From contig OX597815.1 in NCBI GenBank assembly GCA_951406725.2, positions 214,210,001-214,274,000 on the forward strand: a stretch of DNA of 64,000 nt, written 5' to 3'. Positions 1 through 60,866 of this stretch are shown here, piece after piece. The notes under the pieces were generated by a model that searched no databases, was not told the DNA's origin, and saw only the letters and a list, made by a program, of their open reading frames with translations. Numbering within the stretch: the stretch's first letter is position 1; each line of letters opens with the position of its first letter. The position numbers were made by a program, and so were the translations under genes. Source of the DNA: Octopus vulgaris (lineage: Eukaryota).

Positions 1-150
1 ACTTTACGTTCTGTGTTCAAATTCCGTTGAGATCGATTTTGCCTTTAATCTTTTCGACAAAATAAGTAGCGGTTGAGCACTGAGATCGGTGTAATCGAAT
101 TACCATTGCCCCTCAAAATTGCTGGCCTTGTGCTAAAACTGGAAACTATT
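1..150 (+). mobile_element. SINE-A (old-tail subfamily), 5' part outside window
   Basis: B-box-like GTTCAAATTCC, body similar to other copies, tail CCCCTCAAAATTGCTGGCCTTGTGC. Confidence 0.8.
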
Positions 151-410
151 ATTACTTAGAGTGTGCGTAATGTACGTCCAAGGGCGACGTTTTTGTTTAT
201 ACTACAAGTGATAAAATAACGCTAACCTTGTTTTACATTCACATAATAATGTGTAAAGAGGGTGAGTGTGTTATTGATGATGTCATTGACTTGCTCCAGG
301 TCAGTCTTGACTAAACAGAACAATGCTCAGATAGGTTCCACTCACAACCATCACATTTTTATCCCGATGTTACAAATTTAGCACATTATTCAATATGTTC
401 CTTCCATTTA

Positions 411-1031: not shown

Positions 1032-1335
1032 TGTGTACAGTGCTCAGGTGCACTACAACTCATCTAAAGTGTATATATAATCAGGTGTAGTTTCGGCGGA
1101 TTTCGGAAAGGATGAGGGCCTTAAAGGATGCAGTGTCATGGCAGTCAACAACTGACGCAGGCAGTTTATTCCATGCTTCAGCAACTCTGAGCGTGAAAAA
1201 ATGTTTCCGAAAGTCATGGGAGCTGTGTTGTTTTCTGACTTTGTAGGCATGTCCACGTGTGTTAGACACATGGAGATCAAAAAGGTGTTCAGTGTTGTTG
1301 TTGGTGAGGTTGTTGGTGAGGTGTATAATAGCTTT
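998..1335 (-). mobile_element. CR1/L2-group LINE 3' end with (TTA)n tail
   Basis: C-terminus of ORF 1081..1569 reads TRGHAYKVRKQHSSHDFRKHFFTLRVAEAWNKLPASVV..FK, typical post-RT CR1 motif; short 3' UTR then TTA repeat. Confidence 0.85.
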
Positions 1336-1768
1336 TGAATTTCGGCACAAGACAAGCAATTTTAGATGGAGGGTTAAGTCGATTATATCGGCCTCAGTGC
1401 TCATGGTTTGACAACGAAAGGACGAGAAACAAACCTGATCACGGTGGGATTTGAACTCAGAACATAAAAAGCCGGAAGAAATGTCGCTAAACCTTTTATC
1501 CTCCATGCTAACGATTCTGCTGGACCACCGGCTTAGGCATGTATCTATAATCTTTCCTATGATAAGCACAAGGCCTGAAATGTTGGGGGAGGGGGATAGT
1601 CGATTGCATCGACCCCAGTACGCAACTGGTACTTATTTCAATGACTCTGAAAGGAGGAAACGTAAAGTAGACCCCAGCGGAATTTGAACTCAGAACATAA
1701 AGAATGGATGAAATGTCGTTAAATATTTTGTCCGATGCGCTTGCGATTCTACTTGCTGACCGGCTTAG
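1335..1768 (-). mobile_element. Two tandem degenerate SINE-A copies (old tail)
   Basis: Reverse-complement SINE-A at ~1335-1535 and ~1551-1768 (GCACAAG.., AGTCGATT..ATCG, GGAATTTGAACTCAGAAC). Confidence 0.75.
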
Positions 1769-6147: not shown

Positions 6148-6597
6148 GTACATATATGTGTATGTATATATATATATATATATGTATGTATATATATGTA
6201 CATAACACAAAAAGACGTTTCAGTGAGCTCTTTGATAATAAGTCTTAATGATTCACCACCATTTTAAGTTTATTTATCAGTTGTGTTTCAATGCAGGCAG
6301 AGAAAGATAACCACTGACGAATTATTCAACTGAAAATTGAACATTTTCGCTTGTTTTATCCCGTGAATGTACCAGTTAATGACGGAGAAAGATAAAATGT
6401 TGTAAAATAAATGAGTAGTATTCGTTTCATGTGAATTGATACGATTATTGTACTCAGAAAAATGTTGTGGCTTTTGTACTCGATTATGACGACGACGATG
6501 ACTAGGGTGAGGAAGAAGATGATGATTGTTCGTGTTGTTATTAATATTTCTGTGTTAGACACGTTTTCATTCTGTTAGAAATCATCAATAATAATAA

Positions 6598-6988
6598 TCT
6601 ATATATATAAAGCTGAAGTTGTCTGTGTGTGGCAGGTTTGGTAGCCTTCAACTAACACTATCTCCTCCGAGACCCTGCGGCACAAGTTGACCAAACTTGA
6701 GAGTATGATAGAAGAAGGCTTGCTCTTCCTTCCGTAGAAGATAAAATTCAAATCGGACCATGTTAACACCAAAAGTTATTTACATCAATATGGTGCTTTT
6801 TTTCTATGAAAATCCCTATCTTTTAATGATTTTTTTGCTGCTGTGTCGCCATTTTTCGATGTATTTCAACCAGAAAAATGTTCACTTAAAGAGAATAACA
6901 AGCTACATAATACATAAGTTTTACTTTTCAAAAATTCCAATTCTGAAGGGTCGAAACAAACCGGAGCAACGCCGGGCGATACTGCTAG
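6598..6988 (+). mobile_element. Non-autonomous Helitron
   Basis: A|TC 5' end, CTAG|T 3' end, subterminal hairpin CCGGAGCAACGCCGG, no TSD. Confidence 0.9.
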
Positions 6989-7356
6989 TTATTTATAAAA
7001 GGGAAACGAAACAATGTATCATCGTAATGTTGGTAATAATGTCAAGTGGCAGAGATGATGAGAGCGGTGGTGCTGGTTGAAGCGATGCTTGCAGAAAGAA
7101 GTTGTTGTCCTCTCTGTACCCGTTCCTTAGACTACATTAGCCAAAGTGATCTTCATTCGTATTTTTAATACAGGAGACTTATCATATGAAAGAAATTTTG
7201 TTGCTATTTGGAGAAGGTCGCGTAACAAAGTGAAAACAATCCATTGTTCGTTTGGAAGAGACGTTGATGTAGTAAAAGATAGATTTTGTGCAAATGGTTG
7301 GGATAATCGACTACATCCTCTTGTATCTACCTATCTATTTGCTTGCTTATCTATCT

Positions 7357-10984: not shown

Positions 10985-11401
10985 AAAGGTGGCGAGCTGG
11001 CAGAGTGGTTAGCACGCCGGGCGAAATGTTTAGCGGTATTTCGTCTGCTGTTACGTTCTGAGTTCAATTTCCGCCGAGGTCGACTTTGCCTTTCATCCTT
11101 TCGGGGTCGATAAATTAAGTACCAGTTACGCACTGGGGTCGATGTAATCGACTTAATACCTATGTCTGTCCTTGTTTGACCTCTCTGTGTTTAGCCCCTT
11201 GTGGGTAATAAAGAAATAGGTATTTCGTCTGCCGCTACGTTCTGAGTTCAGATTCCGCCGAGGTCGACTTTGCCTTTCATCCTTTCGGAGTGTATTAAAT
11301 AAGTACCAGTTACGCACTGGGGTCGATATAATCGACTTAATCCGTTTGTCTGTCCTTGTTTGTCCTCTCTGTGTTTAGCCCCTTGTGGGTAGTAAAGAAA
11401 T
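10985..11401 (+). mobile_element. SINE-A young-tail dimer
   Basis: Full unit plus 5'-clipped unit; 15 bp TSD ACATTGCTGATGCAT (10968-10982, 11402-11416). Confidence 0.95.
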
Positions 11402-11579
11402 ACATTGCTGATGCATGGAGTTATTTCAAACAGTCATTGCTGTGTATAGGACGGGTTCGACTATGAAGCAACACTATAATTAAATGATGAAAAACAATAA
11501 CTGCTGTTTGTTAATATTTTAATGTAAATGTATTTAGTTATTAAAATTAGCAATTTGAAATTGTTGGCAAATTGTTGTT

Positions 11580-19724: not shown

Positions 19725-20966
19725 TATGTTTGACTTTTGCTTTATATTTGTACAATTTGGCTCCAAGTCTCACCCGGAGACCTCAAGAGACAACAGGTTG
19801 GAAGTTCACGTTGTTGTTATGCCTAGTGTGCCATATATTTGGTTGTTTTTTGTGTTGTACTGGTGGATGTCTAAAAAAAAATGAAAACAAAAATGTTTGT
19901 TTTAAACCTTGAGATTACATAGAAAGTATTTTGCGTAGGATATGAGCAGTTCCCATGAGCACTATATTTTGAATTTCTGCCATTTTGGGGTTTCCTGGTA
20001 TCTGAGTTAGGTAGCAATCAGTCCCTTACGCTATCATTCCCAGGGCACCTATGACAACAAGTATTGTTTTAGTCTTCAGCTTCCACATTTTGCTGATTTC
20101 TATTTCAAGATCTTTATATTTGCTCAGTTTTTGGTAGGTCTTGACAGATACGTTTATATCGATTGGGACAGTCATATCAATGAGGAGGAATGTTCTTTGT
20201 TTGAAGTCTTTCAATATGATGTCTGGCCTATTTACATCTATCTTTCTGTCAGTTTGAATGGTGAAGTTCCAGAGGAGTGAGATAGGTCCTTTTCAAGCAC
20301 TGGGGGTGGTTTGTGTTCCCACCAGTTTTTTTCATGGGGCAAATCCAGGTTTTTTCAGATTACCCTGTGAATATATTGTGCAGCTCTATCGTGCCTGTTG
20401 AGATACACTGTAGGCGCTAGAAGACTGCACTTGGAGACCACATGGTCAATGGTTTCATTTTGTTGCTGGCATACACGACACGTTGGACTGCTTCTGATCT
20501 TTAATATGTTGGCCTGGTAGTTCCTTGTAGGTAGGCATTGATCTTGAGCTGCTATGATAAACCCCTCTGTTTCAGATTTTAAGCCAGAGGCCATTAGCCA
20601 TTGATGGGTCAGGGCTTTGTCAACATCTGCATTATTTGCTCTCTTTGGGTATTTGCCATAGAGAGGTTTTTCTTGCCATTTATCATTCAGAATATCTAAG
20701 GCCGCAGGTTTAGCACTGGTTTTCATGCGCTTAGCTTTTTCTGTGCCTGTTTCTTGTATGTCTATCTCTAATTCCGAAATTTGTTGTATTCGGAATTCAC
20801 TTAGATATTCATTTGCCTGTTTTGTTACTGAGTATGATGCTTTCTTGTTTTCACGTTTTGAGACAAGTTTTAACATCCAGTCCTCAGAGTTTTTCAGGTA
20901 GGTGTCTAGGCCAATTGTAGCAATCTTCATTGTTATTGCCAGTTGTAAAAGTCCACGGCCTCCCTC

Positions 20967-20969
<3 letters not shown>
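19725..20969 (-). mobile_element. R4/Dong-clade non-LTR retrotransposon, 5'-truncated (CCHC + restriction-like endonuclease)
   Basis: ETEGFIIAAQDQ, CRVCQQQNETIDHVVSKC, RHD, NRPDI..LIDMTVP..KLSKYKDL, VVIGALG, GTAHILRKILSM*; (TTA)n at both ends. Confidence 0.92.
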
Positions 20970-21018
<49 letters not shown>

Positions 21019-21430
21019 GGCGCAGGAGTGGCTGTTTGGTAAGTAGCTTGCTAACCAACCACATGGTTCCGGTTCAGTCCACTGCGTGGCATCTTGGGCA
21101 AGTGTCTTCTGCTATAGCACCGGGCCGACCAATGCCTTGTGAGTGGATTTGGTAGACGGAAACTGAAAGAAGCCTGTCGTATATATGTATATATATATAA
21201 GTGTGTGTGAATATGTTTGTGTGTCTGTATTTGTTCCCCTAGCATTGCTTGACAACTGATGCTGGTGTGTTTACGTCCCCGTCACTTAGCGGTTCGGCAA
21301 AAGAGACCGATAGAATAAGTACTGGGCTTACAAATAATAAGTCCTGGGGTCGAGTTGCTCGACTAAAGGCGGTGCTCCAGCATGGCCGCAGTCAAATGAC
21401 TGAAACAAGTAAAAAGAGTAAAAAGAGAGT
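21019..21430 (+). mobile_element. SINE-B full length
   Basis: GGCGCAGGAGTGGCTGTTTGG head, CTTGGGCAAGTG, internal TA/TG tract, AAAAAGAGT tail. Confidence 0.92.
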
Positions 21431-28579: not shown

Positions 28580-29145
28580 ATGTATGATCGCGTTGATGGT
28601 TACACGTTTCGTTATAACCATGTTTATGATTATGCCTTTCGCTACATCCGTGTCCAGAACGGTACTTTTTGCAATATTCACGTTTCGCTACATATGATCA
28701 TATGTTTCGCTATATCCATGTCTATTATCATACATCTCACTACCTCCATACGTTTTGCTACATCTGTCTCAAAAATTGTACGTTTCGCAATATTTGTGTC
28801 TATGATTATACGTTTCCTTATATTTGTGTCTCCGATCGCTACATTCATGTCTATCATTGTAAATTTCATCATTTCGTGTCTATCATTGTACGCGTCATTA
28901 TATCCATGTCTATGATTATACGTTTCACTGTGTGCGTGTTTATGATTGTTCGTTTCATTATATCCCTCTCTATGACTACAAGTTTCGCTACATCCATGTC
29001 TCTGACTATATATTTCGCTATATTCGTGTCTATGATTGAACGTTTCGCTACGTTCGTGTCTATGATTGTACACTTCATTATATTCGTGTCTCTCCTTGTA
29101 CGTTTCACTATATCCATGTCTATGATTATACGTTTCGCTACATCC
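28580..29145. repeat. Degenerate 30 bp minisatellite, ~19 units
   Basis: Consensus TATGATTATACGTTTCGCTATATCCATGTC; CGTTTC recurs in 30 bp phase (28681, 28921, 29041, 29101). Confidence 0.9.
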
Positions 29146-29789
29146 GCGTGTGTGTGTGTATTTGCATGTCTGTTGAACACCCCAAGAAACAAAGGAGTCG
29201 ACATGACGTTGTGTCCTTATGCAAGGTACGTCGTGTCTATTGTTTCAGTTCTCTCAGCTGAAAATGAGCGCCGGTGACAGTTGGGAAGGGGTTTCGCCAC
29301 TACGACGGATTGGTATCTCGTTCAAGAAGACAACTTATAGCGTCCGTCGTTTAAATCCTTCAGAAAACAAGATAAGATCCGGACCAATTAGTCAATAGGC
29401 AGACGGTAGCATTTAACTTCATGTATGTATACAAACATATTTGCACAATGCTCAAAACAAGCACACGAATACATACAAATATACGCGCGGGCGCGCGCGC
29501 GCACACACACACACACACATACACACACACACACACACACATACACACACACACAGAATCGCTTCATTTAATATTATGCGCATGCTATTGTTATTGTTTT
29601 GCTTTTGGTTAAGTTATAACAACTGAAAGGAATTTCTAGCACTGCGCTAAGAGTTTTGGTCACCGTGTCTGGCGCTTACCCGTTAATAGGTTTATTGTCT
29701 GTTAACACAATAAGAAGAACGAAATAAATGATTGGGAATTGAAATTATTTTAATATCCAAGTAAGATGTGAAGCGAGATTTTTTCTGTG

Positions 29790-34941: not shown

Positions 34942-35177
34942 TTATTTCTTTTATTGCCCACAAGGGGCTAAACATAGAAGGGACAAACAAGGACAGACAA
35001 ACCGATTAAGTCGATTACATCGACCCCAGTGCGTAACTGGTACTTAATTTATCGACCCCGAAAGGATGAAAGGCAAAGTCGACCTTGGCGGAATTTGAAC
35101 TCAGAACATAACGGCAGACGAAATACGGCTACACATTTCGCCCGGCATGCTAACGATTCTGCCAGCTCGTCGCCTTA
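34942..35177 (-). mobile_element. SINE-A young-tail monomer
   Basis: Full head to tail; TSD TACTTCAAA(C/T)AC at 34930-34941 and 35179-35190. Confidence 0.93.
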
Positions 35178-35391
35178 ATACTTCAAATACCTGAGCCTTG
35201 AGAACATAGAACAACTGAACGCCTCGTGTCGTGTATTTATTACCTTCACCTGTTCTATATTTTCATTCATAAAGTGAGCCCAGCAGACGAAATCGAGCGA
35301 TTCATTGCTTTTCATATCGTAAGAATAGTCACCTGACGTATTATGATAATATTGGTGTATTTTTCTAATGCAAGCTGTATCGGCAAGGGCA

Positions 35392-37098: not shown

Positions 37099-39154
37099 TA
37101 ACAAAAGCACTCAGAGAGCGCAAACCTCCGCCAAGGTAACACCATTTCCTAATTTTTAATTATTCACCAGGGGACAATACGTAACATGTGGGGACACACA
37201 ACAAGAAAAAAATAGGACAAACGTGTAAAAAAAAATGAATGAAAAAGTGAAAACAGGAAAAAAATGGAACTAAACTACTCGGCCCCATCTCTGTGTAGCC
37301 TCATTTATATCTATTCTCTTTTAAATCCAGTTCCTTTAAGAATGTCTGTTTTATATTTTTATCAAAATATCCGTGCAATCTATAATTATTGGCATCTCAT
37401 CTCTGTCCAAGTTTACTTCCCAATACTCATACCCATAATCAAGTCTTTCTAATATTTCTGTTCATTCTTTGGTTAATATCACACAACTGTGCCACTGCTT
37501 CACATACTCCTCAGTCTTCACGCTTTTTACGTCTTTCCATGAAGCTATGTCCTGGTTTTGTTCTTAATTCATATCATAAATTATACCAATAAAGCTTTTG
37601 TTTTCCCTTTAACTGGAGGAGGGGAAGTTTGGAGATCCTTGTGATCGTGTGTCTTTTTCCTTTGTTTTTGTGTCGGAAGGAAATGGATAGACTTGGTGTC
37701 TGTGGGGGAGGGGAGCTGAGAGGGTGTGGGTTGGGGTTTTATGACCGTATAATTTGCCTTTTTACTTTTTCTTCTGTTTACTCCACTCACCGTTTTCCAC
37801 GTTTCCTCCCTTTACTTCACTGCTGGCGGCAAAGTTTCTTCCTTTTTTCCTGTTTCCTCCACCGGTTCTTACATTTCCTTCTCTTGTTCTTCCGTTGTCT
37901 TTTTGGCCGGTGAAGGGCAATCCACCCTAATGTGGCTGTTTAGACCACATTTGTAATATCGAAGGATTCTGCCTTTACCCTCATTACCACCTCGTCCATC
38001 GTTATGGTTTCCGTCATCATTTCCAACGTTTCCACCGACCCTTGAATGGTCATTTCCAGTGCTTGCCCCTTCCTCATTTCGCATTGTGTTCTAGTGGCCT
38101 GGAGCACCGTTATATCATCCTCATTTTCTATGAGGATCGCGGCTGCTATCCAGGCAACGTCTAACTCCGGCGGTATTCCTTCTACTCTTACCCTGGTTGC
38201 ACGTCGTCCAAGGTGCGTGGGAAGAAGGACTATTTCTTCTCTTTTGATGGTTTCTGCTGCATGCCTTTTTGTTGTTGCCGTACCAAATTTTTTTCCTCTT
38301 GCCAGGGTATGTAATTTTATGCCAAATTGGCCTAAGCCTTTCTCTATTTGGCTTGCAGTCATAATGTCTATTTTTCCTACTTTAACCGAATAAGTCTTGA
38401 ACGTAATGGTTCTTTCCCTTATGTCACTCAGTGTTTCCCGCTGGAGGGACAAGTCCACATTATACCCGTCCCTACTTAGAAATTCTTTAAAACTTTCAAT
38501 TTCCTTCATATCAATTTCATTTTCTTGACGTTTTGCCACATCCGCAAATTTTCTTTCCTTTTCAATTTTGTTGTCTCTCTTCCCATCAATTCATCTTCAG
38601 AAGACGACACTTCAGAAGACGACAGCTTCAGAAGCTGACATCCGAATAGAACATCTTCTTCTCCATTAGGTTAATTCTCCTCATGTGAGGAGGGAAAGGA
38701 CAAACACACTGCCACGATGCAGCAAAGAACAATTAACAAAAGTGTTCAAAAATCACTGACACAAAAAATTAAACGTCCGAACACGATGAAAATACTGGCA
38801 AAATAATGTACTTGCAACTTAGTACAACCTGAGGTGACACCAACGACCTCTCAACGATTAGCCAGAGATACCTTTTAAAATGAGAATATCCGAAATAAAC
38901 TCGACTGCTCTCACAAATGAGAATACAAAAATGAACCTGACCTCTCTCAAAAATTAAGTAAAAAAGCCAGAAAAATAATCCAGAATCCTCGTCCGGCACT
39001 AGATCAATCCCAAAATCTAATCAGTTCGTGCCAGTCACGAGGCTAAACACCCCTGAAAGTTTCATCCGAAGCCACCCAGTGGTTCTTGAGATATCTTGTC
39101 CACGAGCAAACAAACAAACAAACAATACCTCGGCCTTAACGAAAGCGGAGGTAA
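37099..39154 (-). mobile_element. Helentron-associated (DINE-1/HINE-like) element split by a retroposon
   Basis: subTIRs ACCTCCGC/GCGGAGGT, 5' hairpin 39126-39153, (TTTG)n, 3' hairpin GCGCTCTCTGAGTGC; pieces 37099-37144 and 38832-39154. Confidence 0.75.
37145..38831 (-). mobile_element. ORF1-only non-LTR retroposon (HAL1-like), copy 1
   Basis: 11 bp TSD AGGT(A/G)ACACCA (37134-37144, 38832-38842); decayed ORF1 (ORFs 37940..38539, 37869..38084) with (C>Y)YKCGLNSHIRVDC knuckle; no EN/RT. Confidence 0.85.
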
Positions 39155-47559: not shown

Positions 47560-48302
47560 GATTTTTAATTGCAGCACAAGACCAAAGCCTCCCCACCAGA
47601 AATTACCAAAACCATGTAATGAAAAGAAATATTACAAGTAACTGCAGAATATGTGGAGATGGACAAGAAACAATAAATCATATTATCTCTAGCTGCCAGT
47701 CCTGGCTAAGAAGGAATATATTCACAGACATGACAGAGTTGGAACCTACATACATTGGAAGCTATGCCAACATTATGGAATAACAACAGAAAAAAGATGG
47801 TATAGGCACACACCAGAAAAGGTCACAGAAAACGAGAAAGCAACCATACTTTGGGATATGCCGATACACACAGATAGAGAAATTAAGGCCAACAGACCAG
47901 ATATAGTTGTCAGAGATCATGAAGAAAAAAAATGCTTTCTAATTGATGTATCAATACCGGTAGATGACAACGTGTCTCTAAAAGAAATGGAGAAACTCTC
48001 AAAATACAAAGACCTGGAAATAGAGGTAACTAGAATGTGGAATCTGAAAACAGAAACAATTCCTATCATAGTAGGTGCATTAGGCATGATAAAAAATATT
48101 CAGACAAATACATAACAAAAACATCAGGACTTACAAACACATATAACACAGAAAATTGCACTACTAGTCACTGCACACATCCTACGCAGAACACTTTCCA
48201 TACAATAACCATCAGAGCATCACAACAAATCACAGCACATACCCAAGGCACACAGAGCTGCGCTCGGTAGTGAAGTGAAAGCACGCTATAAAAATAAAAC
48301 TA

Positions 48303-48306
<4 letters not shown>
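47560..48306 (+). mobile_element. R4/Dong-clade LINE 3' end in (TAA)n
   Basis: CRICGDGQETINHIISSC, HRHDRVG, TDREIKANRPDIVV..LIDVSIP..KLSKYKDL, IIVGALG; (TAA)n at 47485-47555 and 48306-48485. Confidence 0.92.
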
Positions 48307-48376
<70 letters not shown>

Positions 48377-51660: not shown

Positions 51661-51782
51661 ACACACATATATATATATACATGCACACATACATATATGC
51701 ACACATACATGCACACATACATATATGCACACATATATATAAGATTCCGTTATATATATATATATATATATATGCACATATC

Positions 51783-52510
51783 GTAGGATGAGTTCCTGGA
51801 TCTTAAGAACTTTCCGGTCCAGAGAACAAGGTGTCATCATACCACTTTTTTCCTCCTTTGTACGGCCACACCTTGAATACTGCTGTCCACTGTGGTCTCC
51901 TCACACAAGACAAAACATCTCCAGAATTGAGTCACCCCAGAGGGCTCTCACTAAACAAATTGAAGGCATGGCTGCTCTCGATTATTGGGATCGCCTTAAA
52001 GCCTTGAAACTTTACTCCCTCCAGCGTCGCCGTGAGCGGTACATCATTTGTACGATGTGGAAAATATACCGCCAACTTTGCCCAAACTACCTAAACATTA
52101 GCTTCAAGGTTCATCCAAGACTTGGACCACGGGCTATACGTCCCCTGCCAAATTCAAGATCACAACATACATGTACACTGCAACATAATTTCTTTTCCTC
52201 AACAGGCCCTGCCCTATTTAACATTGTCCCGAGGGAGATCAAAGAGGAAAAGGATCCCATCAACTTCAAACAGAGTCTGGATAGATTCCTTCAAAGAATA
52301 CCAGATAAGCCACCTATAATTGGATACAACTCACCCAACAAGAACTCACTACTTGAACAAAACTGGATACAACTCACCCAATAAGAACTCACTACTTGAA
52401 CAAAACTTGACTTAAACAGGATTCGAATAATCCTATCAGGTGGTGCTATTAAGTTAGACATGGCCTGGACCAATCTCTGGTCGAAACATATCTAAGTTTA
52501 TCTAAGTTTA
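51783..52510 (+). mobile_element. CR1-group LINE 3' end (RT C-terminal region, 3' UTR, tail)
   Basis: ORF 51788..52384: WILRTF, VRPHLEYCCPLWSP, LYSLQRRRERY, GPALFN, FKQSLDRFL; tail TCTAAGTTTA x2; short tandem duplication near 52327-52408. Confidence 0.9.
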
Positions 52511-52589
52511 TATATATATAATAATAATAATAGGGAGTAGAACTCCAAACGTACAGGGAAAAATCCAATTTCGTATTAAATCAAATTTC

Positions 52590-53962: not shown

Positions 53963-54984
53963 AAGGCGGCAAGCTGGCAGAAACGTTAATATGCTGGGCG
54001 AAATGCTTAGCGGTATTTCTTCTGCCGTTACGTTCTGAGTTCAAATTCCACCGAGGTCAACTTTGCCTTTCATCCTTTCGGGGTGGATTAAATAAGTACC
54101 AGTTACGCACTGGGGTCGATATAATCGACTTAATCCGTTTGTCTGTCCTTGTTTGTCCTCTCTCTGTTTAGCCCCTTGTGAGTATTAAAGAAATAGGTAT
54201 TTCGTCTGCCACTACGTTCTGAGTTCAAATTCTGCCGAGGTCGACTTTGCCTTTCATCCTTTCGAGGTCGATTAAGTACTATTTCTTTACTACCCACAGG
54301 GGACTAAACACAGAAAGGACAAACAAGGACAGACAAACGGATTAAGTCGATTATATCGACCCCAGTGCGTAACTGGTACTTGATTTATCGACCCCGAAAG
54401 GATGAATGGCAAAGTCGACCTCGGCGGAATTTGAATTCAGAACGTAGCGACAGACGAAATAGGGCTACGCATTTCGCCTGGCGTGCTAAAGTTTCTGCCA
54501 GCTAACCGCCTTAATTACCGATTAAATAAGTACCAGTTAGGCACTGGAGTCGCTATAATCGGCTTAATCCGTTTGTCTGTCCTTGTTTGCACCCTGTGTG
54601 TTTAGCCTCTTGTGGGTTGTAAAGAAATAGGTATTTCGTCTGCCGCTACGTTCTGAGTTCAAATTCCGCCGAGGTCGACTGTGCCCTTCATCCTTTCGGG
54701 GTCGATTAAATAAGTACCAGTTACGCACTGGGGTCGATGTAAGCGACTTAATCCGTTTGTCTGTCCTTGTTTGTCCCCTCTGTGTTTAGCCCCTTGTGGG
54801 TAGTAAAGAAATAGGTATTTCGTCTTTATGTTCTGAGTTCAAATTTCGCCGAGGTCGACTTTGCCTTTCATCCTTTCCGGGTCGAATAATTAAGTACCAG
54901 TTACGCACTGGGTCGATATAATCGACTGCCCCCCAAAATTCTTTCAAAAACAGTCGGGCCCTGAGCCTAGAGTAGAAAAGAATA
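53963..54984 (+). mobile_element. SINE-A tetramer with nested inverted copy (54280-54512)
   Basis: One full and three 5'-clipped units joined at GAAATA|GGTATTTCG; last unit has old tail. Confidence 0.92.
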
Positions 54985-55505
54985 AAATTGGTTGTTGTTA
55001 TTTGATTTCATTTCAGACATTCCTTGGGTTTAAAGATTCGTGTTATAAAGTAAATATCTTTATGTTGGTAATTTATTCCGGATGGATATTCCACTTTTCC
55101 CTTCTTTACAACACCCTCGTCTACTGATTGTGTAGTAAATCTGCTAGTCAGTAATGGTGAGTCATCAAATTTAGCCCTACTGTATTGACATTTATGACTC
55201 ATCGGTTAATTACATAATGATCCTACGACTAGATACTGCAATACAGGAAGATAGGTACGTATAGTAAATCCAGATGAGAAAAAGAGTGGATTCCGAGACG
55301 GCTTGGCGGCGGCCTTTCTATTGTTTTATTATTGAATATAATCAAGAAACAACCAAATCATCTGAAGCTCATCAAAACCTTCGATAATATTATGGTGTCG
55401 CTGCTGCTGCTACAACTATACTGTTGTATGAATATCTGTGACAAGGCACTTATATTAAACTGTTGTGTGTACTAATGCATCACTATACTAATCTTACTCG
55501 AGTAT

Positions 55506-55741
55506 AAGGCGGCGAGCTGGCAGAAGCGTTAGCACGCCGGGCGAAATGCGTAGCCCTATTTCGTCTGCCGCTACGTTCTGAGTTCAAATTCCGCCGAGGT
55601 CGACTTTGCCTTTCATCCTTTCGGGGTCAATAAATTAAGTACCAGTTACGCACTGGGGTCGATATATTCAACTTAATCCGTTTGTCTGTCCTTGTTTGTC
55701 CCCTCTGTGTTTATCCCCTTGTGGGTAGTAAAGAAATATAA
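55506..55741 (+). mobile_element. SINE-A young-tail monomer
   Basis: 19 bp TSD ACTAATCTTACTCG(A/G)GTAT at 55487-55505 and 55742-55760. Confidence 0.95.
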
Positions 55742-56109: not shown

Positions 56110-56872
56110 ATAACTTGGCACTCCGTAGGTTACGACGAAGAGTACTCTAGTTGATCCGATCAACGTTACAACCTGCATGTGAAATTAACGTGCAAGTGGG
56201 TGAACACTCCACAGACACGCGTACGTTTAGCATAGTTTAGGCGGCGAGCTGGCAGAAACGTTAGCACGACGGGCGAAATGTGTAGCCGTATTTCGTCTGC
56301 CGTTACATTCTGAGTTCAAATTCCGCCGAGGTCGACTTTGCCTTTCATCTTTTCGGGGTCGATTAAATAAGTACCAGTTGCGCACTGGGGTCGATATAAT
56401 CGACTTAATCCGTTTGTCTGTCCTTGTTTGTCCTCTCTGTGTTTAGCCTCTTGTGGGTAGTAAAGAAATTGGTATTTCGTCTGCCGTTACATTCTGAGTT
56501 CAAATTCCGCCGAGGTCGACTTTGCCTTTCATCCTTTCGGGGTCGATAAATTAAGTACCAGTTACGCACTGAGGTCGATGTAATCGACTTAATCCGTTTG
56601 TCTGCCCTTGTTTGTCCCCTCTGTGTTTAGCCCCTTGTGGGCAATAAAAAGATAAGTACCTTTAGCATAGTTTTCAAGAAGGTTCGGCGTGGCACTGCAT
56701 GTTACAAGGCCGGCCTTTTTCAATTACAGGTACAACTTATTTTTGCCAGCCGAGTGGACTGGACCAACGTGAAACATAGTGTCTTACTCAATGTCACAAC
56801 GCACCTCCATGAATCGAACTCACAACCTTATGATTGTAAATCAAACCTAACCACTAAGCCGTGCGCCTTCAC
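56110..56872 (-). mobile_element. SINE-C interrupted by SINE-A dimer
   Basis: Body 56110-56238 and 56656-56872 with tRNA-like head at right end. Confidence 0.8.
56239..56655 (+). mobile_element. SINE-A young-tail dimer
   Basis: 18 bp TSD GTAC(G/C)TTTAGCATAGTTT at 56221-56238 and 56656-56673. Confidence 0.95.
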
Positions 56873-57834: not shown

Positions 57835-58405
57835 TTAAGTCCATCTGTCTGTCTGTTCCGTCATCATGGTCAACGGCTGGACCAAGAGTCACGATGGTTT
57901 TCGGGATTAAAAAGGAGGTAATCAGGGACGTTTTTAGTGAAAAAATGTGAAAAAGTATAATTATTTAGTGAATATTGAGTTTCGTATTAATAAATCAGCT
58001 TTGATTTTCTTTTTTTTTTGTTAAAATTGCGGCGACGAAGATTAACTCTGGATTTCCGCCCCATATAGTTCGTGAATTTAGAGGGTTTAAATTTGCAATA
58101 CTGTCCCCTTATTTCACATCGTAGATGAGGAGATTTGCTATCTTACTATAATGGGCGCTATGACCGTCTTTCTGTCCGTCTCTTTGTCTGTTCCCTCTTC
58201 GCTGCCAGTCGGCTGGACCAACGGTTACGATATTTTTCGGGATTACAAAGACGGTCGTCGGGAAGGTTTTTAGCATTAAAAAAATAAAAAAAGTATGATT
58301 ATTTCGTGGACATCGATTTTTGAATTGATAAACCACCTTCGCATTTTTATTAAAAATTCATCGACCGCGAGTAACTCTCGATTTTCATCGTATAGTTCGT
58401 AGCCC
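57835..58405 (+). mobile_element. Two diverged tandem units resembling Helitron 5' ends
   Basis: ~57840-58075 aligns with ~58165-58400 (GTCTGTTCC, CGGCTGGACCAA, TTCGGGATTA, TATAGTTCGT); A|TCTTACTATAA at 58141. Confidence 0.55.
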
Positions 58406-58637
58406 CATCGTAGATCCGAACGGGGTCGCAAGGACGGTTAATAGCGAAAATAAAATCGAAAAAGTGTGTGTCAGTATATAGTGTATGTGATTATTTAGTG
58501 GTTATTGAAGTGTGTCAGTCACATGCAGGATTCGAAACGGCTAATCGAAGCGGCTGTTGTCAATCAAAATAACCCATGGTACCCGTGTATTGTCACCTCT
58601 TTCTTTAACCCTTGTGGTTTGAATAAAATCATCGTTC

Positions 58638-60730
58638 TAGTTCTACTTTGTGTTAAAATACATATTTGTAGTAAGTCACTGTTAAATTAATTGTTGCACT
58701 GTTGAATGGCTGTTTATTCTAATTATTTTGTGTTGAACAACACTTTGTTTTGCTGCCTTACGACAGTTTTGTTGACGCCTTCCCCCTTGTTTGAAGGGGG
58801 TAGCACAGCGTTAAAAAATGGAGTATGACAATCTGAGTTCTTCCGAGGAAGAATTGCTGAAAACAATTTCTGTGATAGACAAAAAAAGAAGAAAGAATGA
58901 ATTTTGCGGCCGTGGTCAAAAGCCACAACGAACAAATTGATGCAAAGGAACTAGGTAAATGCAAGAATATGCTTCGTAGGTAGGGGCAAGACGTAAAGGT
59001 GTCCCCTCCCCGAGAAGTTATTACAGAAAACCAACCAAAGAAAAGATGATAATCTATAGAACTTACTCTGTCAAAACCAAGAAAATCGAATTAATGACTA
59101 CAATTCAAATTGAAAAGGCGTTAAAACCCATCTGGCAGAGGAAGAAAGTTCGGAACGGTGGAGGTGCGGTTCCGAGATGAAGCTACTGCCAGGCTACCCC
59201 TTAAAATCTGATGAGGTGTTACTTCTGCCCATATACCTTGGAAGACGTGCTTCCAGGGAAGGGGTAGAAGACATAGAAGCTAGTAACTGCTATACTGCTG
59301 GGCCTCCAAGCCACCAGCACTGCACATAAAAATTCGCAAGGGCAGGGCCTGGATATGGTAGTCTAGGCCACCCTGGAAGACCTGGAAAATATGGTCGAGA
59401 TCATTACATTCAAAGATGTAATACTCGGTGTTAGAGTGGTGGTCAGTATCCCTCGTTGTTACATATGTGGCCAAAAAGAGCACATTAGAGCGGAATGTCC
59501 TCCACCGCCCATAAAGTCACAAGAGGTACCCGTGATCGTAAAAGAAACTGCACCTCCACCGCCGGCAAGAACTAACGGAAGAGAGATCAGCACAGGGGGA
59601 AAAGGAAAAAATAAAACCAAAGACGGATGGGAAACTGCAGGAAAGAAGAACAGAAAGAGGAGAAAAAGTACAATCGGTGAACGATAATCCTCATCTCACA
59701 CCCATCCGACTCCCACCCAGACCCACACTGCTCCACCCTTCCCCTACAGACACTAACCCTCACCCTACCCCCACCTTACACTGACAAATTAACCACAAGC
59801 ACACAAGAGCCCCAAATTTCCCAAGCCCCAACCTGTGAAAAAAAGTATAGTGATTTACAATGCAAAACATGCTAAGCTATCTAAGGGGGTAGACAGGTGG
59901 GAAGAGTAGATAAAGGTAATCATTGTAGAGTGTGGGGAGGTGCCCTCGCACTATGACTGTGTGATAGTAGACCCCAGATACACATCAGAACTGGAAGAAT
60001 ACGGGAACAATGTTTTTCACTGGCGAAAGAAAATCGATACCAGGTATATACCAACAACAGTAGGTTACAAAGAACTTCTTAAAGACTTTAATATAGACAT
60101 TTTATGTGGTGAATAAGATTTTAAAATGTTTTATAATAAGTAAAATAAGTAAATTGTGTATATCTTTATATATAAAAGTGAGGTTGTGTGCTGTCTGTCT
60201 CCTACGATTTAGATTCCTAACTACTCCCACATTTTGCGGTGCAGTTTAACCAAAACCGGGTATCTTATAGTCGTGATTCATATCGAGCCCTTCTGGGTAT
60301 TAGCGCGCGTCTACGATGAGTCTACTATTAAAAAAAAAAATTACCATAAAGTTTTCCCATTTTTAATGCATTTTTGGCATATATAAGGGAAGTAACTCTC
60401 TAAAAATTTATTATTAAATCTCAGAACGTAAAAAGCTAGAGTAACCCCCCCCTTTGTGGTTAGCTATATTGAGATGGCTATTATACTTTACATCTCTAAA
60501 AATGCTTATATAGTTATTTCCCTTACAAACCCGAGCAACGCCGGGCGATACTGCTAGTCAAAGATAAATGAAGTCATCTGGATGTGGGGTCGAGTGGCTT
60601 CATTCCGTTTTTCATTTGATTATTTAATTCATCCTTTTCATTCGAATTTTTTGTCCCCATCCTTGGGTTTTTTGTCTGTCCTTGTACTGTCACCTCTATA
60701 TTGGCCCCGTGTGGGCAATAAAGAAATAAG
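58638..60730 (+). mobile_element. ORF1-only non-LTR retroposon (HAL1-like), copy 2
   Basis: ATG 58818; decayed ORF1 homologous to copy 1 (RTYSVK, RGRKFGTVEVRF, LLPIYLGRRAS, CYICGQKEHIRAEC); T-rich 3' UTR ending GTGGGCAATAAAGAAATA; 5' end approximate, no clear TSD. Confidence 0.82.
60163..60557 (+). mobile_element. Non-autonomous Helitron nested in the retroposon 3' UTR
   Basis: A|TC start, CCCGAGCAACGCCGGG hairpin, CTAG|T end. Confidence 0.9.
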
Positions 60731-60866
60731 TTTGAGCTAGTTCCACCGTTCGTGCGTTGATAGTTCACAGCTCGAGTTAGCGCGTTGGATTGTTGTTACG
60801 TTCCGTGTGCTTACGGCCGTTTTTTCGATTATATTGTTGCAGTGTATTCGTTTATCCGTAAGGGTA

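What the first reader, a model, noticed from the sequence alone, without database searches (positions are those of the whole stretch)
60668..60730. Young SINE-A tail matches the 3' end of the ORF1-only retroposon
Seen: retroposon end TTTGTCTGTCCTTGTACTGTCACCTCTATATTGGCCCCGTGTGGGCAATAAAGAAATAAG versus SINE tail TTTGTCTGTCCTTGTTTGTCCCTTCTATGTTTAGCCCCTTGTGGGCAATAAAAGAAATAAG (34942-35001, minus). Known: SINEs share 3' tails with the LINE whose RT mobilises them. Inference: a three-party system of an unseen autonomous LINE, the ORF1-only element and SINE-A, all using one tail signal; their 11-19 bp TSDs fit one enzyme class.
Basis: partly seen in the sequence, partly recalled or inferred. Interest (0 to 1): 0.75.

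Follow-up and report, generated by a model that had tools for sequence, protein, structure and literature searches.

The report
Octopus half-LINE shares tail with SINE
In what looks like an octopus genome, a jumping element that carries only a LINE-type RNA-packaging gene and a young short repeat end in the same 60-base tail, so both probably borrow one copying enzyme that was not found; this is a new case of known kinds of genomic hitch-hiking.

Summary
The match is real: 60671-60731 hits all 10 SINE-A tails in the window (best 85.7%, E 1e-12; mean 80% against 90% among SINE-A copies). It is not a truncated SINE. It ends a 1.69-kb ORF1-only element (A, 58647-60736; two RRMs plus one CCHC knuckle, no endonuclease or RT). 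A paralog, B (38831-37145, minus, 1.69 kb), is colinear from the ORF1 end through the 3' UTR, and its last 62 nt are the top hit of 40,770 windows scanned with a SINE-A tail. The same SINE head also occurs with a different tail, and the switch point lies 5 nt before the match begins, so SINE-A arose by tail swap. Not shown: the autonomous partner (no RT element with this tail seen; L1/Tx1 is my guess, about 0.55) and 'one signal', because B's tail is only 62-64% alike and breaks the hairpin. The TSD argument is weak: A's and B's TSDs are each about 12% likely by chance. SINE-A's tail is closer to A than A is to B, so the half-LINE lineage itself may be the donor. Verdict: new variant of known kinds (HeT-A/HAL1/Ag-Sponge plus SINE tail exchange).

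The parts
60671..60730 (+). Shared 3' tail of element A: pyrimidine-rich stretch, predicted hairpin at about 60700-60722, then AATAAA; no poly(A) or microsatellite
58647..60736 (+). Element A, ORF1-only non-LTR retroposon; 2090 bp, 1693 bp without the later insert
58637..58646 (+). Candidate 5' TSD copy of A (10 bp, 1 mismatch; weak on its own)
60737..60746 (+). Candidate 3' TSD copy of A
58818..60116 (+). Decayed ORF1 of A (at least 5 frame changes in the first 700 nt, plus in-frame stops): two RRM-like domains, CCHC knuckle at 59454-59501, low-complexity linker
   Evidence: family fold
60162..60558 (+). Later 397-bp insertion in A's 3' UTR; both ends match another copy at 6597-6989 (non-autonomous DNA element; HINE/Helentron-like label is recalled)
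60560..60670 (+). Pre-tail 3' UTR of A, colinear with B 37312-37213 (61% identity, z 6.9)
37145..38831 (-). Element B, paralogous ORF1-only retroposon, 1687 bp; ORF1 from 38666 to about 37320, decayed
37150..37212 (-). Diverged tail at the 3' end of B (64% to SINE-A, 62% to A)
38832..38842 (-). 5' TSD copy of B (11 bp, 1 mismatch); B sits inside a host repeat whose inverted 8-mers lie at 39152 and 37132
37134..37144 (-). 3' TSD copy of B
58575..58632 (+). Third tail (C), ending just upstream of A; 63-64% to A and SINE-A; shares two differences with A against SINE-A; its parent element was not identified
34943..35180 (-).
10986..11402 (+). SINE-A, full unit plus 184-nt head-truncated repeat; 15-bp perfect TSD
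53964..54927 (+). SINE-A tandem cluster, interrupted by an inverted SINE-A at 54515-54280 (minus)
55501..55738 (+). SINE-A monomer; 19-22 bp TSD
56239..56655 (+). SINE-A with 184-nt tandem unit; 18-bp TSD

Best explanation
The 60 nt are the native 3' end of an old family of ORF1-only ('half-LINE') retroposons in an octopus genome. Steps: (1) a two-ORF LINE lost ORF2 and kept its 5' UTR, its Type I ORF1 and its 3' UTR (ORF1-only anatomy shown for two copies; the parent is inferred). (2) The derivative spread and diversified as a 1.69-kb unit (two copies shown in the window; 374 protein clusters). (3) A tRNA-type SINE that already carried another tail swapped it for the last 65 nt of an RNA from A's lineage, most likely by RT template switching, giving young SINE-A (switch point shown; mechanism inferred). 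(4) An RT supplied in trans binds the tail, probably the terminal hairpin before AATAAA, and inserts both RNAs by target-primed reverse transcription with 10-22 bp TSDs (inferred from established LINE biology). My estimates: partner is an L1/Tx1-clade LINE about 0.55; tail donor was the half-LINE lineage rather than the LINE about 0.4.
For: B ends in the tail: it is the top locus of 40,770 62-nt windows scanned with a SINE-A tail (score 51; next 45 is C, background 40 or less) and also with A's tail (44; C and one unrelated locus 41). A and B are colinear over the ORF1 end (z 4.7), the pre-tail UTR (z 6.9) and the tail (z 4.9), and have nearly equal lengths (1693 and 1687 bp). No repeat of 6 bp or more flanks the tail alone (0 in 1752 position pairs). 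Of 34 SINE core hits, 10 carry the A tail, 11 a different tail and 13 were left unclassified by the pattern; the classes part right after the same core motif, and A's match starts 5 nt later. ORF1 family: 374 clusters at E<=0.001; model with two RRM folds; one knuckle in 16 of 150 proteins, never two. No endonuclease or RT family in 32 proteins or in 102 alignment members (the two sets overlap). Hairpin: 90% of 104 cells paired, 2 of 8 pairs changed on both sides, 2 of 500 shuffles as high for pairing. Among recently active O. vulgaris LINE groups (RTE, Dong-R4, CR1, L1-Tx1, Hero, R2; PMC13282606 Table 1) L1-Tx1 and CR1 are the two-ORF kinds (recalled); CR1, L2 and Jockey Type I ORF1s have three knuckles where a count is given (PMC4120745 Table 1).
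Against: No RT-bearing element with the tail was seen. The tail profile has no hit below E 0.4 other than SINE-A, A and C (B scores E 0.71), and the three LINE-fragment 3' ends displayed end differently. B's tail is only 62-64% alike and breaks 3 of the 4 inner stem pairs as aligned. None of 6 tails folds better than shuffles (z -0.05 to -0.87), and the hairpin was drawn from these same sequences, with 10 of 13 rows being close relatives. The TSDs of A and B are weak. A profile of homolog C-termini did not recognise the ends of A or B (best E 0.08). Only two ORF1-only copies could be examined as DNA. ORF1 type does not fix the clade (PMC4120745).
Confidence: 0.75

Rival explanations
1. A 5'-truncated SINE-A was inserted at, or fused to, the end of A; the tail is not part of the retroposon.
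For: A's tail is far closer to SINE-A (mean 80%) than to B (62%). SINE-A is abundant and inserts into other repeats, including itself.
Against: The truncation would have to fall within about 5 of 240 nt of the SINE's own tail-swap point. No TSD surrounds the tail alone. B has a colinear tail at the same place. A shares with C an extra base and a substitution; none of the 10 SINE-A tails has both.
Confidence: 0.06
2. A had a native but diverged tail like B's, which was later overwritten by SINE-A sequence (gene conversion or cDNA recombination) at this one locus.
For: It explains why the tail is 80-85% to SINE-A while the rest of A is 58-66% to B.
Against: The A/C shared differences are not SINE-A-like. 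A lies outside the SINE-A spread (75-85% against 83-98% among SINE-A pairs), as expected if it has decayed since before SINE-A spread.
Confidence: 0.07
3. A and B are two separate internal deletions of ordinary full-length LINE copies, not a family that transposes in ORF1-only form; the system is then a plain SINE-LINE pair.
For: Only two DNA copies were seen. A has about 30 extra nt near the ORF1/UTR junction. Absence of ORF1-ORF2 fusions among predicted proteins is weak evidence, since the two ORFs are normally separate.
Against: Two copies only 58-66% alike have the same length and stay colinear across the junction, which independent deletions would rarely give.
Confidence: 0.1
4. A is a gag-only LTR element: C plus A's 5' end is the left LTR, and the tail plus the sequence after it (D, 60737-60866) is the right LTR.
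For: A tail-like sequence lies at both ends. D weakly resembles A's 5' end (8 of 2000 shuffles).
Against: C and A's tail are only 63% alike and the DNA upstream of them is unrelated (z -0.6). With CpG-aware scoring the D match fell to 58 of 5000, below at least 10 unrelated loci. B has no such repeats, and the protein is an RRM-type ORF1.
Confidence: 0.02

Closest known systems
ORF1-present non-autonomous LINEs: HeT-A (Jockey clade), HAL1 (L1), Ag-Sponge (CR1) (PMC5786205 and PMC5753468, passages)
   Same: 5' UTR, ORF1 and 3' end of a LINE with no ORF2; dependent on a partner RT.
   Different: Mollusc host; ORF1 with two RRMs and one knuckle; no poly(A); interspersed, with no telomere array nearby; tail shared with a SINE, which the passages I saw do not report for those three.
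SINE-LINE shared 3' tails and tail exchange (PMC3747384, PMC4824008, PMC11481361; passages)
   Same: Shared tail of about 60 nt at 80-85% (bivalve pairs: 35-61 bp, 72-95%); one SINE body with alternative tails; possible terminal stem-loop.
   Different: The visible sharer is itself non-autonomous. [quoted passage not shown]
SINEU with Tx1-Mar in crocodilians (PMC4494074, passages)
   Same: SINE inferred to be mobilised by Tx1; TSDs of about 10-16 bp; tandem insertions and insertions into other transposons.
   Different: That link rests on shared targets and the heads are snRNA-derived; here it rests on tail sequence, and no shared target was found.
Octopus OK, OR1 and OR2 SINEs (Ohshima and Okada 1994; seen only as citations; the name OK is recalled)
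   Same: tRNA-type SINEs of octopus; SINE-A or its other-tailed relative may be one of them.
Tandem SINE arrays TSD-(SINE)n-TSD in the bivalve S. broughtonii (PMC11481361, passage)
   Same: First unit with full head, later units truncated at one fixed head position, one TSD pair around the array.
   Different: In SINE-A every unit keeps a complete tail.

Membership tests
ORF1-only non-autonomous LINE (HeT-A/HAL1/Ag-Sponge kind) | Encodes a LINE-type ORF1 protein | tested here: met
   Two RRM folds plus CCHC knuckle (Type I ORF1); definition
ORF1-only non-autonomous LINE (HeT-A/HAL1/Ag-Sponge kind) | No ORF2 (endonuclease/RT) between ORF1 and the 3' end | tested here: met
   About 220 nt (A, insert excluded) and about 180 nt (B) follow ORF1; longest stop-free stretch 57 codons
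ORF1-only non-autonomous LINE (HeT-A/HAL1/Ag-Sponge kind) | Transposes as a unit (several full-length copies with TSDs) | tested here: inconclusive
   Two copies of equal length with shared junction; TSDs weak; no genome access
ORF1-only non-autonomous LINE (HeT-A/HAL1/Ag-Sponge kind) | 3' end shared with an autonomous LINE | not testable with these tools
   No eukaryotic DNA collection available; no partner in the window
L1/Tx1 clade derivative | RT phylogeny places the parent in L1/Tx1 | not testable with these tools
   No linked RT found
L1/Tx1 clade derivative | Type I ORF1 (RRM plus CCHC) | tested here: met
   atlas lead to ZCCHC3-like RBD plus CCHC clusters at 0.90. Not unique to this clade
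L1/Tx1 clade derivative | Target preference typical of many Tx1 families | tested here: inconclusive
   TSD sequences of A, B and five SINE-A loci differ by eye; several sit in or beside other repeats
Stringent-type SINE/LINE tail pair | 3'-terminal similarity confined to the SINE tail module | tested here: met
   (partner in the comparison is the ORF1-only element)
Stringent-type SINE/LINE tail pair | Conserved stem-loop with compensatory changes | tested here: inconclusive
   2 of 8 pairs changed on both sides and 90% paired, but B breaks the inner stem and folding z-scores are near 0
Stringent-type SINE/LINE tail pair | Tail required for mobilisation by the partner RT | not testable with these tools
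   Needs a retrotransposition assay
tRNA-derived SINE (SINE-A) | [quoted passage not shown] | tested here: inconclusive
   Box-like motifs by eye (box consensus recalled); ARAGORN 0 genes; no tRNA family among 4 Rfam hits
tRNA-derived SINE (SINE-A) | Short, non-coding, interspersed, TSD-flanked | tested here: met
   238-nt unit, 10 tails at 6 loci, TSDs of 12-22 bp at 4 loci
MetaSINE or CORE-SINE (SINE-A body) | Conserved central domain | tested here: inconclusive
   By-eye look at bivalve Meta and CORE consensus rows showed no clear match; no alignment computed
Gag-only LTR retrotransposon | Near-identical long terminal repeats | tested here: not met

The most novel reading that the evidence does not exclude
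The LINE behind this system is split: no two-ORF parent survives, the large ORF1-only family supplies the RNA-packaging protein in trans to a separate RT-only element with the same tail, and SINE-A took its tail from the ORF1-only RNA. That would be a segmented retrotransposon with a SINE parasitising it. Not excluded, because no ORF2 could be linked to any ORF1 homolog examined, but that absence is weak. The milder reading, tail donation by the half-LINE with a normal LINE present, I put at about 0.4.
Probability: 0.08. Interest if true: 0.8.

Novelty: new variant of a known kind. Interest (0 to 1): 0.45.

Why it matters
SINEs are 11.6% of the O. vulgaris assembly and nearly all recently active families are unclassified (PMC13282606). 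A tail tied to an ORF1 family gives a handle for finding the enzyme that moves one young family. It would add a mollusc lineage to the three ORF1-only LINE derivatives named in PMC5786205. If the partner is L1/Tx1, it would be one of few sequence-specific tail pairs in that clade. If SINE-A took the tail from the half-LINE, one non-autonomous element handed its RT passport to another. Each ingredient has precedent, so the surprise for a specialist is moderate.

Tried and rejected
Looking for the partner: the word-index search of 598-2000 aa proteins with a 41-sequence alignment found 0 of 7252 candidates (weak evidence by the tool's own note). An exact 25-nt tail pattern in bacterial and archaeal genomes gave 0 hits, as expected. 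The RT-related fragments in the window (1081-1632, 20355-21050, 47693-48115, 51743-52384) carry no tail hit; the 3' end of the 20355 fragment was not displayed. PDB sequence search gave only weak knuckle matches (best E 0.006). One search used a misregistered structure string and is superseded. D as a homolog of A's 5' end: not supported after controls. C as an element with its own TSD: best candidates were 9-12 bp among 61,220 position pairs, not convincing. My early note that SINE-A has a Meta-like core was dropped after seeing the published rows. A C-terminal profile from 7 homologs did not recognise the ends of A or B. The first repeat scan was swamped by microsatellites. Ten paper searches listed no description of an octopus ORF1-only element; Repbase, Dfam, the Zenodo library of PMC13282606 and subscription papers were not searchable and may already hold these consensus sequences.

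Full report
1. Observation. The match runs 60671-60731 and reaches all 10 SINE-A tails in the window, E 9.6e-13 to 4.7e-4, best 85.7% to the copy at 35001-34940. In global alignments A's tail averages 80% (75-85%) to SINE-A tails, while the 45 SINE-A pairs average 90% (83-98%). Shuffles give z 10.2, 0 of 2000. Similarity stops at the tail: the preceding 60 nt score z 0.6 against the SINE body.

2. Host. The two named homologs of the ORF are UniRef entries from Octopus bimaculoides, 53-54% identical. I infer an octopus genome; the species is not determined.

3. Element A. An ATG at 58818 opens a decayed frame that ends near 60116. Homolog matches fall in alternating frames, at least 5 frame changes in the first 700 nt, with in-frame stops. 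It holds a CCHC knuckle (PF00098, E 8.4e-5) and matches the family profile at probability 99.3. A 397-bp element was inserted later at 60162-60558; its ends match a copy at 6597-6989. Without it, A measures 1693 bp between 10-bp repeats at 58637 and 60737.

4. The protein family. A profile of 4 sequences found 374 clusters at E<=0.001 among 1.84 billion representatives; the best 150 were returned. Sixteen of the 150 have a full knuckle pattern, each exactly once. AlphaFold on P0005 with 102 sequences is confident over about residues 120-350 (mean pLDDT 66 overall). Foldseek's best hits are tandem-RRM proteins (E 1.4e-4, low TM because of long disordered parts), and VIA-align gives Z 8.3, rmsd 2.5, 76 aligned for the first domain, a middling value. 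RRM plus CCHC defines Type I ORF1, found in I, Jockey, R1, Tad1, plant L1 and L2 clades (PMC4120745) and in L1s of fish and amphibians (PMC5203782). No endonuclease or RT family appeared in 32 proteins chosen for rank or length or in 102 alignment members. Several long hits are gene models fused to unrelated host domains.

5. The decisive paralog. Element B (38831-37145, minus, 1687 bp) lies inside a host repeat, between 11-bp repeats. Its ORF1 core is 58% identical to A's in DNA (66% of ungapped columns), and the two stay colinear through the ORF1 end (z 4.7), the pre-tail UTR (61%, z 6.9) and the tail (62%, z 4.9). In a blind scan of 40,770 windows outside SINE-A and A's tail, a SINE-A tail scored highest on B's last 62 nt (51), then on C (45), then background (40 or less). 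With A's tail as query B was again first (44), but an unrelated locus tied with C at 41. On its own the profile hit on B is weak (E 0.71); its weight comes from rank and position.

6. SINE-A is a tail-swap product. Of 34 hits to the SINE core, 10 continue into the A tail, 11 into a different tail that often ends in short trinucleotide repeats, and 13 were not classified by my pattern (several of these look like the second class or are partial). The classes part directly after the same core motif, and A's match starts 5 nt later. A random 5' truncation of a 240-nt SINE would seldom stop there, and no repeat of 6 bp or more flanks the tail alone. A and C also share an extra base and a substitution; no SINE-A tail has both. 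Tail exchange is the known way SINE families change partner LINEs (PMC4824008, PMC11481361).

7. What speaks against the simple three-party picture. No RT element with the tail was found. B and C are only about 64% alike to SINE-A, the same level as the rest of A against B, so the tail shows no special conservation across the family. The hairpin before AATAAA is 90% paired with 2 double changes, but B breaks 3 of 4 inner pairs, no tail folds better than shuffles, and the structure was derived from these sequences. A's and B's TSDs each arise in about 12% of shuffles; their support is the matching element lengths and 5' UTR lengths (171 and 165 nt). TSDs of 10-20 bp come from several LINE clades (recalled).

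8. Who gave the tail? A's 3' end descends colinearly from the A/B ancestor, and A and B differ by about 40%. A LINE evolving separately since then should differ from A's tail by a similar amount unless constrained, yet SINE-A differs by only 15-20%, part of which is A's own decay. So the donor was close to A's lineage: either the ORF1-only RNA itself or a LINE whose tail A's lineage tracks (inference; about 0.4 against 0.6).

9. Mechanism. Shown: ORF1-only anatomy in two copies, shared tail, swap point, SINE-A TSDs. Inferred: Pol II transcription of the half-LINE and Pol III transcription of the SINE, packaging by ORF1p, tail recognition and target-primed reverse transcription by a trans-acting RT. 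Partner guess: L1/Tx1, because 13 such families are recently active in O. vulgaris (80 families in all), the tabulated CR1, L2 and Jockey Type I ORF1s have three knuckles where a count is given, the O. vulgaris RTE described has a single ORF, and the CR1-like and Dong-like ends in the window differ (clade labels recalled). About 0.55.

10. Comparison and novelty. ORF1-only derivatives are known from Jockey, L1 and CR1 clades, shared tails from many SINE-LINE pairs, and head-truncated SINE tandems from bivalves. In ten searches I found no description of this octopus family or of a SINE sharing a tail with an ORF1-only element; repeat libraries were not searchable. Papers: passages only for PMC4758252, PMC4494074, PMC5786205, PMC5753468, PMC5203782, PMC11203168, PMC11481361, PMC4120745, PMC3747384, PMC3531059 and PMC9115989; passages plus 2 of 4 supplement parts for PMC4824008; parts 1-2 of 3 plus a supplement search for PMC13282606; Ohshima and Okada 1994 not seen. 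Figures and unseen supplements of these papers may hold the relevant consensus sequences.

11. Verdict. Observation confirmed; interpretation partly supported; new variant of a known kind; interest 0.45.

Noticed in passing
window 10986-11402, 53964-54927, 56239-56655: SINE-A forms partial tandems of a 184-nt unit; all 5 junctions restart at the same point inside the head, right after a complete tail.
   Followed up: partly
window 58575-58632 (+): A third tail (C) ends 4 nt before A's candidate TSD, giving a head-to-tail arrangement; its parent element and TSD were not found.
   Followed up: partly
window 60737-60866 (+): CpG-rich stretch (13 CpG in 130 nt, observed/expected 2.0) right after A; single copy in the window; may be the 5' end of another element. 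Unexplained.
   Followed up: partly
window 54280-54515 (-): A SINE-A inserted in opposite orientation into a SINE-A tandem; the resulting hairpin gives a sub-threshold Rfam miRNA match, an artefact.
   Followed up: partly
window 93-165, 14637-14582, 31035-30976, 33009-32951, 36103-36044 and others: An older SINE class with the same head and core but another tail; about 17 tail hits at E<0.002. Its partner was not identified either.
   Followed up: partly
window 47693-48330 (+), 20355-21050 (-), 51743-52520 (+), 1081-1632 (-): Four LINE ORF fragments (two Dong/R4-like, two CR1-like by recalled motifs); the three ends displayed finish in short repeats unrelated to either SINE tail.
   Followed up: partly
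window 57839-58073 and 58174-58400; 60162-60558 and 6597-6989; 39152-37100: Several non-autonomous DNA elements of HINE/Helentron-like look (label recalled): one pair upstream of A, one inside A, one hosting B.
   Followed up: no
window 28600-29190: A 30-bp tandem repeat array that gives long open frames on both strands.
   Followed up: no
proteins P0015, P0033, P0043, P0097: Predicted proteins in which this ORF1 is joined to unrelated sequence (LDL-receptor repeats, C2H2 zinc fingers, astacin; no Pfam family for P0043); probably gene-model errors, exonisation not excluded.
   Followed up: no
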